A DNA stretch of 64,000 bases from Chrysomallon squamiferum (lineage: Eukaryota > Animalia > Mollusca). The translations under genes were made by a program, and so were the position numbers. This document shows positions 2,740 to 18,529 of this stretch, one piece after another (the first letter of the stretch is position 1; each line of letters starts with the position of its first letter). The notes beneath the pieces are model-generated. The model saw only the letters and a list, made by a program, of their open reading frames with translations. It did not search any database and was not told the origin of the DNA. The stretch covers positions 6,138,001-6,202,000 of the forward strand of contig CM022670.1 in the NCBI GenBank assembly GCA_012295275.1, given 5' to 3'.

Positions 2740-5700
2740 CTTCTGTTTTGAACTTGATGTACGTCTTCTTGTCTTCGATCATGGCGTCCACGGCGAGTTT
2801 CTCACAAAACAAACCAGTGATGACAGCAATGGTCGGCTGCTCCTTCCCCGTCAGAGTGGGCAGTTCTTTAACCACGAGCACTTCTGAAATTTCAAAAATA
2901 ATAATTGTAATAGTAATGACAATGATGTCGATGATAATGATGTTGTGACGATGATGATTTTAATAATAAGAAGAATGATGATGATGATGATAATATAAGA
3001 ACATAATATACTTATTAATTAAGTTCATCTAATAACAGACCGTATAACTATAAATACTGCTACTGAAAAAAGAATATGTATATCTTAATTACAATTATTC
3101 GTATCAACATATGTACATAGACATAAATGAAACATACAGTTATAAAACCAGTAATGAATGAATGAATGTATGTATGTATGTATGTATGTATGTATGTATG
3201 TATGTATGTATGTATGTATAGACATATGAATGATAATACACACACACAGAGGCATACACGTACGTAAATATTAAACTTTCGAAGGCTGTTATCATTAAAC
3301 ACTTAGTGGTTGTTGTTTTGTCTGTGTGTGTGTGTGTGTGTGTGTGTGTGTGTATGTATAGGTGTGTGTTTTGTTGTGTTATTTTATTAATTACAATTTT
3401 CAAAACATTTCAGTTGTATCAATACGTTACCTACCATGTTTTGCTTGATGTCCGGCGGTTTGCATTCGAATCCACAAACCTTTCTCAATCTCCTGAATGA
3501 GTTTTCTTTTTTCCAGTTCCTTCAACATGACAATTCCTTGTATCGTGTCTGACTGCTTCACCTTGCTTTTCCTGCCATCAACAAAACTTTCACTGTTTAT
3601 TGTTTATTTCGGATGTATCATATCAAAATTGATGACGAGAAAAATCAGAGCACGAGAGACAGAGAGACTGGCAGATAGAAATATATATATCCAGATAGAT
3701 ACAGAGTTAGACAGATAGACAGAAAGAGACAGACACAGACAGAGAGACAAAGAGACAGACAGATAGACAGATAAATATCAGCTCATTAGATCATTTTATC
3801 TTGAAAAAAAAACAAAAAAACATTTTAAAGTTTTAATATAACAACGAATAAAACGTAAGTTATAAAAAAGGAAATAAATCAGTTATATTAACCGTACTTT
3901 GTGTAAAAAAACAACAACAAAACAACTAATATGTTAGGACTGACTGACTGCTGTTTGTGACATAATCGATAACCAGTATTTGCGGCAATGAGGGACACCT
4001 GTTGTAGTATATTTTATTCCGTTTCTCTTATCAGTGGTTAAATCATTGATTTCAGATAGCAGTTGTTTAGTAGTTAGCATGCCTGTCAGACAGGTATTTT
4101 CTTAATTCAAGCAAAGGCCCTGGTGTTTTTTTTTTAGAGATTATTGACAGAATTTTCTGGTTTATTAATATTTTTATGGTGATGAACACAAACTAACAAT
4201 TACTCACGTCATCTGATATTACCTTGAACAAAAACCAGCTCACAAACATGGACTATGTGAGTCATGTCATACTACCTTGAAAAAAGAACTCACCAGAACT
4301 CACGTCAACTGATATTATCTTGAATAAGCAACTCAGAAACTTGGTTATATGTCTAACACTGGATAACCTAGAATAGACAGCTTGCAAAAGGACAATTCTG
4401 ATAAAAGACAGTTTGCTAAACACCAAGATAAAAGCTAACTCACTTGAAGATATTGTCGACGTCCACTGGGTTAGGGTAGGCATCTTCCAACGTCTGCAGC
4501 ATCCGCTGTTTCTTGGCCAACCACAACAACGATTCTCTAATCTTGTTTCTTCTGGCTTTCTTCTCCAGATCTTTCTCTTCTAAAAAAAAAAAAAAAACCG
4601 AACAATACATCTTTTAATACAGTAAACTAGAGTTCTTCATACTATTTCGTAACTGCTCTTTAAAAAGACGCAAAAATGAATCTTGCTGAATTTTGTCATC
4701 AGTTATTTAACGTTTGAAAATATTGTTTTGTCTAAGGGTCAGTCAAGTATTATTACTTTACTATTTTTTTAATTTTTTTTTTTTTTTACATTTATGTGTA
4801 AGATGTGATGCCAAGCAAGAACAGAAAATAGCAGCATCCATGAATATATATATATTTTTATTGTCTTGTTTTCTTTTAACTACCTCTTGAAATAAACAAA
4901 ACACAAAAAAGGTATTTAGGCGTTGGTTCAGACTACATACAAACATGTTTAATCTATTATTGAATAGCAGAGAGTACATCTATACATTATCATTACATAA
5001 CAGGCATCGTAGTAAGTAAACTGCATGTCTGAAAATCAGAAATTGTTATTTAAAACTCGAAACCAGATATATTTCATTGCTATGATGTCATTATGGGTCA
5101 GTCGTCCGTTCTTTTACTTTTTATTTTTAAAGCTATGTCATGATAAGTAAATAATTAGGTTAATTTATCTCTAAAATTACACAAAGAGATGTTATTGACA
5201 TAATGGTTAACAAAGAATAATAAGACTTAAACGATTCCACTCATATAAAATGTTCAGACGCTGAAACTCAAACGGTGTCATTTTGACCGCGTTAATAATA
5301 CATGTTTTAACACGGTTCATATATCATTCTGAAATAATTTCATTACATACACATTAATTTTTTTTTTTTTAAATTCCTTAATTAAAAAAAAACATTGAAA
5401 ACATTCTTAGATTTATTTAATTTCTTTTCCCTTAAAGAAAAATGATTAATTTCACAAGTTACATCATAACGTAGTTGGTTATGCAAAAATTCTTTACATT
5501 CTTTACAATAGTTCATGTCAAACTATTTTAAATAGTTAAAAAATTAATTAAAATTACAGTAATACAAAAAGCCACAGTGTCATGGCACCAGCTAATAATT
5601 TTCAACAATAATCCATTTAATTAATAAATGCATAATAATAATAATAATAATAATAATAATAATAATAATAATAATAATTTTAACAGTGACAGTTTTATTA

Positions 5701-17700: not shown

Positions 17701-18529
17701 ACCGCATCCCAACTTAACCATAAACGTACGTATTGATGTGTTGTCAACTGAACAGAAATATTTTATTGTTAGTTAATGTGACGAGTTTAAGCAATTATTT
17801 AAGTCAGTCATATAATGAAACTGTTATTTTATTTTATTAGATTTTTAAGCCAGTTTTAATTATCAAATAATTAAGTTCATTTGGTCAAGTAAAATTTTTA
17901 TATTATTTCATTCTAACAAGACTTTTTTTCTGTTTTGTTTTTTTCCCTTTTTTTCAGTTTGATTTATTTTTAAGCATTCATTTAAACACAAAATTCTATA
18001 CTATTGTGCAGAAAAAAAGTATTAAACAAAGCATTTTTATTCATTTGTGTCCCAAGAAAATGATTTCTTGGTTAGCGGCTTTATTTAGTCGAGTGCATGC
18101 GTAGAGGCGCACGCTCCAGTTTAATCTCCCTTAATATTTTGGTAAGAGGTCCAGAAATAAAAATGTGACACTTGTCAACACAATGCATCATAAATATTTA
18201 ATATTTTAATCGGGGTTATCGTCTAACCAAATATAATTTTATGTCACAGTTCACTGGTTTAAAAAAGAATATTAATTATTGATTAAGCATGTTATCTGCA
18301 CGGATGAACGATGACTTTGTCTTACATCCTGGTGTACAATGCTTTCAGATTTCTCGCAATTCATACCCGCCCACTCCTGACTTTTTTAAACATCTGCTCG
18401 ACAGTTCATAAAAATTGCGTCTCTCTTAAAGTACTTCGTTTTTCCAGCGAACAATGAACAAGCAGACGATCTATTTAAATCCTAATTTGTATTAACAGCA
18501 AAGTGTCACTTACCTTCTATTTCTCCCAT
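2740..18529 (-). CDS. Uncharacterised multidomain protein: FAMeT-like (Methyltransf_FA) + winged-helix-like + N-terminal part of nucleoside phosphorylase (PNP_UDP_1-like) fold; 3'-partial
   Basis: Exons in transcript order: 18529-18514 (MGEIE, GTAAGT donor), 11890-11747, 8099-7650, 7041-7021, 4579-4444, 3571-3435, 2883-2740. All introns are GT-AG, phases are compatible and there are no stops (about 349 codons). The last exon reads EVLVVKELPTLTGKEQPTIAVITGLFCEKLAVDAMIEDKKTYIKFKTE. I found no further exon in 1-2739. The two most 5' exons and the microexon are less certain than the domain exons. Confidence 0.72.
7250..7400 (+). repeat. (TATATC)/(TACACC) hexamer low-complexity repeat
   Basis: Directly visible. 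Confidence 0.8.
7545..7608 (+). repeat. (CA)n microsatellite
   Basis: Directly visible. Confidence 0.95.
7650..8099 (-). CDS. Exon encoding a farnesoic acid O-methyltransferase-like (Methyltransf_FA) domain
   Basis: Contains the family motifs FKIKAAGEAHVALS, HEIVIGAEGNTKSVLR, NILSEKQFRYFWISW, IQVGRG, FLDW and AVSTG..GHWEF. The exon is 450 nt, bounded by TTGCAG and GTGAGT. Confidence 0.88.
11186..11308 (+). repeat. (ACA)n/(TAC)n microsatellite
   Basis: Directly visible. Confidence 0.9.
17573..17672 (+). repeat. (CT)50 microsatellite
   Basis: Uninterrupted 100-nt polypyrimidine/polypurine tract. Confidence 0.95.

What the first reader, a model, noticed from the sequence alone, without database searches (positions are those of the whole stretch)
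2740..18529. FAMeT-like + winged-helix + nucleoside-phosphorylase-fold fusion protein: candidate sensor-effector of unknown function
Seen: seven phase-compatible exons join a complete Methyltransf_FA-like domain to a helical/wing segment (KQRMLQTLEDAYPNPVDVDNIFKKSKVKQSDTIQGIVMLKELEKRKLIQEIEKGLWIR). This is followed by QPTIAVITGLFCEKLAVDAMIED, which matches the first strand-helix (TIAII.AL..E..AV.AMLD) of PNP/MTAN-fold enzymes. The ORF track shows only the FAMeT exon. Established: FAMeT-like domains lack a canonical SAM-binding motif and occur as modules with DM9 repeats and in CPAMD8. PNP_UDP_1 domains serve as ATP-nucleosidase effectors in bacterial CBASS (Cap17) and Detocs systems and occur in fungal and animal NLR-like proteins. 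Inference: this may be an invertebrate ligand- or nucleic-acid-responsive nucleotide-cleaving protein, possibly immune. wHTH+PNP proteins probably already exist as uncharacterised entries; the FAMeT addition is the unusual part.
Basis: partly seen in the sequence, partly recalled or inferred. Interest (0 to 1): 0.8.

Follow-up and report, generated by a model that had tools for sequence, protein, structure and literature searches.

The report
Mollusc lectin-fold nucleosidase-like fusion gene
This is a real, spliced mollusc gene whose protein joins a domain of no known family, a predicted sugar-binding-type fold, a winged helix and the start of an enzyme domain that likely cuts adenine off nucleotides; it is likely a variant of an untested invertebrate family already noted in print, and its immune role is unproven.

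Summary
The gene is real. Ten coding exons on the minus strand (not seven) give an open 455-aa N-terminal part, 87% identical to Gigantopelta aegis LOC121374324. RNA contigs join the FAMeT exon to the winged-helix and PNP-start exons in 3 of 4 runs of one study. The rest of the PNP domain lies left of the window.

The FAMeT-free core is pan-protostome and likely is the CG12065/H14E04.2 family that Rousset 2023 proposed, untested, as Zα-sensing ATP nucleosidases. The FAMeT form is a separate old paralog of molluscs and nemerteans.

New here, all predicted: FAMeT folds like a galectin β-sandwich, not a methyltransferase; the winged helix superposes on ZBP1 Zα but lacks its Asn/Tyr pair (0 of 103); the PNP domain keeps the catalytic Glu (103/103) and Asp (102/103) but has lost the EME-G ribose motif of its bacterial relatives.

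Best reading: a regulated cytosolic adenine-nucleotide nucleosidase tamed from a bacterial conflict effector (0.45). Pseudoenzyme and immune effector remain open.

The parts
18514..18529 (-). Coding exon 1 (ATG, 16 nt, phase 1)
   Evidence: GT donor, in-frame stops upstream, matches the start of P0001; not checked against RNA
11747..11890 (-). Coding exon 2, orphan N-terminal domain (aa 6-53)
   Evidence: tblastn 94% to P0001; AG/GT, phase 1-1; not checked against RNA
9299..9381 (-). Coding exon 3, N-terminal domain (aa 54-81)
   Evidence: tblastn 89%; RNA joint 8952/9298 in 3 of 4 runs
8842..8953 (-). Coding exon 4, N-terminal domain (aa 82-118)
   Evidence: tblastn 79%; RNA contigs X2, X3
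8424..8546 (-). Coding exon 5, end of N-terminal domain and acidic linker (aa 119-159)
   Evidence: tblastn; RNA contigs in 4 of 4 runs
7650..8099 (-). Coding exon 6: whole FAMeT-like (PF12248) domain on one 450-nt phase 1-1 exon; predicted galectin-like beta-sandwich
   Evidence: Pfam E 7.4e-27; phases; ortholog model 157-309 aligns to CBM66/galectins, Z 12.4/12.0; RNA
7021..7041 (-). 21-nt phase 1-1 micro-exon in the FAMeT-wHTH linker, likely alternatively spliced
   Evidence: AG/GT; 31 unplaced letters in X1 against 10 in X2, X3; similar short insert in Patella, Haliotis and one unnamed ortholog
4444..4579 (-). Coding exon 8: long basic helix and first half of the winged helix (HTH_69)
   Evidence: tblastn 86%; Pfam HTH_69 E 0.01; RNA in 3 of 4 runs
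3435..3571 (-). Coding exon 9: recognition helix and wing; Z-alpha-like fold without the Asn/Tyr pair
   Evidence: tblastn 74%; ortholog model vs ZBP1 9j89_D Z 10.9, rmsd 1.3, 64 aligned
2740..2883 (-). Coding exon 10: start of the PNP/MTAN-fold domain with the invariant Glu (MTAN Glu12 position); gene continues left of the window
   Evidence: tblastn 84%; E428 in 103 of 103; RNA joint in 4 of 4 runs

Best explanation
The gene encodes a four-domain protein that likely works as a regulated cytosolic nucleosidase, predicted to cut adenine from an adenine nucleotide or nucleoside. Shown: the spliced gene and domain order; the two paralog groups; the residue patterns. Predicted from an ortholog model: PNP/MTAN fold, galectin-like FAMeT sandwich, Z-alpha-like winged helix. 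Inferred: the PNP domain came from the long-form bacterial conflict effectors (Cap17-like) and was tamed in early protostomes; the kept Glu/Asp pair still does MTAN-type hydrolysis, while the remodelled ribose motif changed substrate or rate; the N-terminal domain and winged helix would keep the enzyme in check; after an old duplication one copy gained a whole FAMeT module on a symmetric exon, which would add a ligand-binding input (glycan or protein), not methyl transfer. Its job is more likely nucleotide homeostasis or stress signalling than Z-RNA-triggered antiviral ATP destruction.
For: AF2 model of ortholog P0001, pLDDT 86.6: residues 418-731 match MTAN 4l0m, Z 22.3, rmsd 3.5, 222 aligned; Foldseek E 1.5e-10. 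E428 103 of 103, D703 102 of 103, R699 93 of 103, E/D at 679 in 100 of 103; full set in 25 of 37 FAMeT+ and 65 of 66 FAMeT- rows. Closest bacterial matches found are ~290-aa long-form PNP domains, 26-30% identical to the query, some fused to VMAP or patatin domains or inside ~1280-aa proteins; they score 104-126 bits on a family PNP profile in 14 ORFs against 13-14 bits for PDB MTANs on the whole-family profile. Tested Cap17-like domains of a fungus and a sponge are ATP nucleosidases (Rousset, section read). [quoted passage not shown] FAMeT exon is 450 nt, phase 1-1. Both paralogs are conserved: mean identity across 10 genera 52-57% (FAMeT+) and 64-66% (FAMeT-) per domain.
Against: No member has been assayed in the papers found. 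The [ED]ME-G ribose motif, present in 15 of 15 bacterial ORFs aligned, is absent from 260 of 260 long animal proteins. Ten of 37 FAMeT+ rows (the named ones are heterobranch snails) have Leu for the Arg and His/Gln at 677; two nematode rows have Gly at the ribose-binding acid. Galectin identity is only 5-12% with no galectin Pfam hit, so a ligand is unproven. The catalytic Asp of this species lies outside the window. pTM 0.62 leaves domain packing, and so any auto-inhibition, unshown. The bacterial set was picked by a motif taken from the family itself.
Confidence: 0.45

Rival explanations
1. Pseudoenzyme: the PNP domain binds an adenine nucleotide but turns it over poorly or not at all, and serves as a nucleotide-sensing switch or scaffold for the winged helix and N-terminal domain.
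For: EME-G lost in 260 of 260 animal proteins; Arg lost in 10 of 37 FAMeT+ rows; Gly at the ribose acid in two nematode rows; Pfam PNP_UDP_1 matched by only 25 of 49 members at E<=0.5.
Against: The two acids that MTAN mutant structures mark as catalytic (Glu12Gln 1z5n, Asp197Asn 1z5o; titles) are nearly invariant across protostomes. Ligand binding alone could also keep them.
Confidence: 0.25
2. Innate immune effector: foreign nucleic acid (Z-form or other) or a microbial glycan activates a Cap17-like ATP nucleosidase that drains ATP in infected cells, as Rousset et al. speculated for the arthropod and nematode proteins.
For: Winged helix superposes on ZBP1 Z-alpha (Z 10.9, rmsd 1.3, 64 of 64); Trp at the W66 position in 37 of 37 FAMeT+ rows; PADLOC effector model PDLC00759 matched by 28 of 49 members; conflict-type bacterial relatives; FAMeT modules occur with DUF3421 and in CPAMD8; CG12065 appears once in a table of a Drosophila SUMO/immune proteome.
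Against: No NxxxY in helix 3 in 103 of 103 rows; the Asn and Tyr positions hold Val/Ile and Lys in FAMeT+, and these residues are central to Z-DNA binding (PMC6278649 passages). Pfam z-alpha is not among the 25 families shown for 49 members (69 matched in all). Conserved paralog pair with no expansion among named hits. MTAN model matches as often as the defence model (27 vs 28 of 49).
Confidence: 0.17
3. Housekeeping salvage enzyme: an MTAN-like MTA/SAH nucleosidase, with the FAMeT domain a methyltransferase whose inhibitory by-product SAH it removes.
For: Best solved folds are all MTANs; NCBIfam MTAN model matched by 27 of 49; strong conservation.
Against: FAMeT models as a lectin-like beta-sandwich with no SAM-binding fold among the 50 rows shown; the MTAN model scores 37 bits for the first member against a cut-off of 169; Met173-equivalent absent in 37 of 37 FAMeT+ rows; long-form domain with wHTH and orphan domain unlike MTAN.
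Confidence: 0.1

Closest known systems
Drosophila CG12065 (Q8MRM6) / C. elegans H14E04.2 (H2L0A5) / Apis A0A7M7MVF0: 'Z-alpha + Cap17-like PNP' proteins of Rousset et al., bioRxiv 10.1101/2023.01.24.525353
   Same: Winged helix with a Z-alpha-like fold followed by a PNP domain, in insects and nematodes; the family found here includes Anopheles, Tribolium, ants and Caenorhabditis brenneri. Identity with CG12065 itself is inferred: its sequence was not retrieved.
   Different: This gene is a separate paralog with a FAMeT domain inserted between the N-terminal domain and the winged helix; 'mollus' and 'lophotrochozo' occur 0 times in the preprint text; the passages read do not mention the N-terminal domain or the missing Z-alpha residues.
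Cap17 (type III CBASS), DtcC (Detocs), fungal NLRN and sponge DDAN ATP nucleosidases
   Same: PNP_UDP_1 fold with the catalytic Glu and Asp; weak match to PADLOC PN-superfamily effector model (that it is Cap17 is my recall).
   Different: EME-G ribose motif remodelled; no NACHT, TPR, death or cyclic-nucleotide sensor domain; conserved and not expanded; activity untested.
Bacterial MTA/SAH nucleosidase (MTAN)
   Same: Closest solved fold (Z 22.3); Glu12, Arg193, Asp197 positions kept (roles of Arg193, Met173, Glu174 recalled).
   Different: ~315-aa domain against ~230 aa; 11-18% identity; far under the curated cut-off; multidomain.
ZBP1 / ADAR1 Z-alpha domain
   Same: Predicted fold, short wing, Trp at W66.
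   Different: Asn46/173 and Tyr50/177 absent in all 103 rows; single copy. Like ADAR1 Z-beta, which lacks the Tyr and does not bind Z-DNA in the same way.
FAMeT (PF12248) modules of arthropod FAMeT-DUF3421 proteins and CPAMD8
   Same: Complete PF12248 domain, mobile module.
   Different: Here fused to a PNP-fold enzyme; predicted galectin/ConA-like sandwich.

Membership tests
Protostome NTD-HTH_69-PNP family (CG12065/H14E04.2-like) | HTH_69 winged helix followed by a PNP-fold domain | tested here: met
   HTH_69 in 48 of 49 members
Protostome NTD-HTH_69-PNP family (CG12065/H14E04.2-like) | Conserved N-terminal domain | tested here: met
   NTD profile finds 436 proteins at E<=0.001 among 1.84 billion; full-length named hits are nematode, tardigrade, flatworm, rotifer, nematomorph, arthropod
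Protostome NTD-HTH_69-PNP family (CG12065/H14E04.2-like) | Direct sequence match to CG12065 or H14E04.2 | tested here: inconclusive
   No hit carried these names in the lists shown; C. brenneri and Anopheles members were found
Cap17-like ATP nucleosidases | PNP fold with catalytic Glu and Asp | tested here: met
   Glu in window exon 10 and 103 of 103; Asp 102 of 103. The Asp of this species is outside the window
Cap17-like ATP nucleosidases | EME-G ribose-binding motif as in bacterial long-form PNPs and MTAN | tested here: not met
   15 of 15 bacterial ORFs have [ED]ME; 0 of 260 animal proteins. Cap17's own sequence was not seen
Cap17-like ATP nucleosidases | Placement in the defensive PNP clade | tested here: inconclusive
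   Nearest bacterial hits are long-form PNPs, some in conflict-type fusions, but defence and MTAN models match equally often; no tree with Cap17/DtcC was possible
Cap17-like ATP nucleosidases | Release of adenine from ATP/dATP | not testable with these tools
   Needs an enzyme assay
Z-alpha domains | Winged-helix fold of Z-alpha type | tested here: met
   ZBP1 9j89_D Z 10.9, rmsd 1.3, 64 of 64
Z-alpha domains | Asn-x-x-x-Tyr in helix 3 (N173/Y177; N46/Y50) | tested here: not met
   0 of 103 rows; residue roles from PMC6278649; register taken from the range end 392=70, which puts W388 on W66
SAM-dependent methyltransferases | SAM-binding fold | tested here: inconclusive
   Model of 157-309 is nearly all beta and matches lectin-type sandwiches; no methyltransferase among the 50 rows shown
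Galectins | Galectin sequence family and galactoside-binding residues | tested here: inconclusive
   Fold match Z 10-12 at 5-12% identity; no galectin Pfam hit; residue-level alignment not available
MTAN (housekeeping) | NCBIfam equivalog score above cut-off | tested here: not met
   37.4 bits for the first member, best E 4.7e-12 among 49, cut-off 169

The most novel reading that the evidence does not exclude
The misnamed FAMeT domain is a galectin-like sensor, and in molluscs and nemerteans it is wired directly to a Cap17-derived ATP nucleosidase: a one-protein cytosolic glycan or damage sensor that destroys ATP, held shut by an N-terminal domain of undescribed fold.
Probability: 0.1. Interest if true: 0.85.

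Novelty: new variant of a known kind. Interest (0 to 1): 0.5.

Why it matters
If active, this family is a bacterial-type nucleotide-destroying effector kept for over 500 million years in most protostomes, including flies and worms, where it is directly testable. The analysis challenges the published guess that it senses Z-form nucleic acid, offers a fold and a ligand-binding hypothesis for the long-disputed FAMeT domain, and points to a conserved 145-aa domain with no Pfam family and no clear solved fold. The fusion itself is already in databases for many molluscs, so it is not a one-off discovery.

Tried and rejected
N-terminal domain: confident model (pLDDT 90.1) but no clear match: VIA best Z 5.7 (ribosomal eS1, rmsd 3.6, 101 aligned), weak T-fold rows Z 4.4-5.4; Foldseek PDB and viral none at E<=0.001; Pfam none under E 0.015; PDB sequences none; ESM Atlas blank twice. 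This does not show a new fold. Complex prediction of the N-terminal domain with two PNP domains gave no answer (score 0.00, alignments not used): no evidence either way. phmmer of P0001 against PDB gave nothing. tblastn against plasmids: no match. A search with P0222, hoped to be dipteran, returned mites and other arthropods and no CG12065 name among 120 shown. The ORF at 10672-10989 first looked like an exon; it has no Pfam hit and no place in the ortholog: rejected. Low RNA depth over 2083-2776 in two runs could reflect intron reads or a short isoform; not resolved. Earlier findings: three look-ups, nothing. Paper searches for the fusion found no description; a search for MTAN residue numbers found none. 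The Cell version of Rousset is not held and bioRxiv supplements are closed, so Table S6, which may list mollusc FAMeT-PNP proteins, was not seen.
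Full report
Observation. The window is AT-rich animal DNA. The FAMeT exon finds 19 longer proteins, all named ones molluscan, led by Gigantopelta aegis LOC121374324 (P0001, 731 aa, 87% identical). 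tblastn of P0001 maps four more upstream exons. The full model has ten coding exons (18529-18514, 11890-11747, 9381-9299, 8953-8842, 8546-8424, 8099-7650, 7041-7021, 4579-4444, 3571-3435, 2883-2740), all phase-compatible, 455 aa without a stop; without the micro-exon it aligns gap-free to P0001 1-448 with 388 identities. RNA contigs of four runs of one study, laid on 1-10400, join the exons from 9381 down to 2740 as listed in the observation check; in three runs one contig spans FAMeT, winged-helix and PNP-start exons. Contigs show presence, not level or strand. Exons 1 and 2 rest on homology and splice signals only. The PNP domain continues left of the window, so all statements on its C-terminal part rest on orthologs.

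Anatomy. AlphaFold2 of P0001 with a 103-row alignment gives pLDDT 86.6, pTM 0.62. (a) Residues 5-146: an alpha/beta domain, well conserved in both paralogs, with no Pfam family. Folded alone it is confident (pLDDT 90.1) but has no clear solved match (best Z 5.7). A profile finds 436 proteins among 1.84 billion; among the 150 listed, the long ones carry the winged helix and PNP behind it and none showed another partner among the four profiles tested. (b) 157-309: PF12248, predicted beta-sandwich like CBM66 (Z 12.4) and galectins (Z 12.0), 5-12% identity. (c) a long basic helix and HTH_69, superposing on ZBP1 9j89_D (Z 10.9, rmsd 1.3, 64 of 64). (d) 418-731: MTAN fold (Z 22.3; Foldseek E 1.5e-10).

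Family. A search with the PNP part finds 821 proteins, 120 listed. Of 261 stored proteins of 400 aa or more (isoforms and near-copies included), 188 read NTD-HTH-PNP and 40 NTD-FAMeT-HTH-PNP. The FAMeT-free form occurs in arthropods, nematodes, a tardigrade, flatworms, a rotifer, a nematomorph, an annelid, a bryozoan, a nemertean and molluscs; no deuterostome or cnidarian name appeared in the lists shown. The FAMeT form occurs in gastropods, bivalves, cephalopods, a chiton, two nemerteans and unnamed records such as P0065. PNP-only trees (quick, SH-aLRT only) separate two groups (65 FAMeT- rows at 100, rooted on 8 bacterial domains: 32 rows without a FAMeT domain in the stored sequence, ecdysozoans and spiralians together, at 99, with FAMeT+ rows outside, unresolved). 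This suggests a duplication before the ecdysozoan-spiralian split; the outgroup is distant. Lingula P0070 lacks FAMeT but falls with the FAMeT+ side: either the state before insertion or a skipped exon. Both paralogs are seen in 10 genera (three pairs are two species of one genus). The whole FAMeT domain on one phase 1-1 exon fits exon shuffling (inference).

Catalytic site. The MTAN Glu12 position is Glu in 103 of 103 rows, Asp197 in 102, Arg193 in 93, Glu174 is Glu/Asp in 100 (register from the profile alignment to 6po4 and 4jos). Glu12 and Asp197 are marked by PDB mutant titles; the roles of Met173, Glu174 and Arg193 are recalled. Against this, the [ED]ME motif seen in 15 of 15 bacterial ORFs is missing in 260 of 260 animal proteins; ten FAMeT+ rows have Leu for the Arg, two nematode rows Gly for Glu174. 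A motif scan of GTDB gave 22 loci from 110 candidates; 15 ORFs from the best 14 loci are long-form PNP_UDP_1 domains, one fused to VMAP, one to patatin and kelch, three inside ~1280-aa proteins, all matching the PADLOC PN-superfamily effector model. For the animal proteins, that model and the MTAN model match 28 and 27 of 49.

Winged helix. Z-DNA binding rests on Asn173, Tyr177, Trp195 of ADAR1 (Asn46, Tyr50, Trp66 of mouse ZBP1; PMC6278649, passages). Counting back from the last aligned pair (392=70) puts P0001 Ile368, Lys372, Trp388 on these; the tool gives no residue-level alignment, but no row has NxxxY in helix 3 (0 of 103). The window's exon 9 has the same Ile, Lys and Trp. So it works like a Z-alpha scaffold in shape but fails membership; other nucleic-acid or protein binding is not excluded.

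What is known. Rousset et al. (bioRxiv 10.1101/2023.01.24.525353; passages and section 8 read) place Drosophila CG12065, Apis and C. elegans H14E04.2 proteins in the Cap17 clade with a Z-alpha-homologous domain and speculate on ATP degradation; they assayed only a fungal and a sponge domain. The name CG12065 was my recall, used as a search term; that it belongs to the family found here is inferred, not aligned. Other mentions of CG12065/H14E04.2 are list entries (passages). FAMeT methyl transfer is unproven (PMC10015273, passages); CPAMD8 carries the domain (PMC9363628, passage). Five searches found no paper on the FAMeT fusion (listings only); Rousset's Table S6 was not seen. Databases already list PF22979 with PF12248 for these proteins.

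Mechanism and verdict. Most likely a regulated adenine-nucleotide nucleosidase tamed from a bacterial conflict effector, with the FAMeT sandwich as an added ligand input (0.45); pseudoenzyme 0.25; immune ATP-draining effector 0.17; MTAN-like salvage 0.10. Regulation, ligand and activity are all untested. New variant of a known, uncharacterised kind; interest 0.5.

Noticed in passing
window ~23759-28100, + strand: Sel1-repeat gene lying head-to-head with this gene (Sel1 E 4.7e-10 at 25578-26045); it looks like DELE1, the mitochondrial stress messenger (name recalled, not tested).
   Followed up: partly
window 54448-54768 and 58663-58959, - strand: RAD50-like exons (SbcC Walker B, E 3.8e-8; coiled coil).
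   Followed up: partly
window 42994-43380, - strand: Cyclin-A N-terminal exon (Cyclin_N2, E 5.8e-6).
   Followed up: partly
P0021-P0029, P0035: These FAMeT+ orthologs (named ones are heterobranch snails) share Arg to Leu and Asp to His/Gln changes in the predicted active site, while their FAMeT- paralogs keep them: possible lineage-wide loss or change of catalysis.
   Followed up: partly
window 7021-7041; P0016, P0032, P0003, P0007: The FAMeT-wHTH linker is a variable spot: a short acidic insert recurs in Patella, Haliotis and an unnamed record, and a chiton isoform has a 343-aa insert there.
   Followed up: partly
window 2726-2739 and 2083-2776; P0011: Reading on past the last donor gives a stop after a few codons, and two runs show low RNA depth in this intron; an Octopus isoform (P0011, 478 aa) also ends at this boundary, so a PNP-less short isoform is possible.
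   Followed up: no
P0070 (Lingula): Groups with the FAMeT+ paralog but has no FAMeT domain: state before insertion or a skipped exon.
   Followed up: partly
L007, L009, L012 (~1280-1295 aa ORFs); L005: Large clostridial proteins with a C-terminal PNP domain and about 980 aa with no Pfam hit; L005 carries two PNP genes within 3.5 kb. Candidate undescribed conflict systems.
   Followed up: no
window 10669-10989, - strand: GC-rich 106-aa open frame inside intron 2, no Pfam hit, not part of the ortholog.
   Followed up: partly
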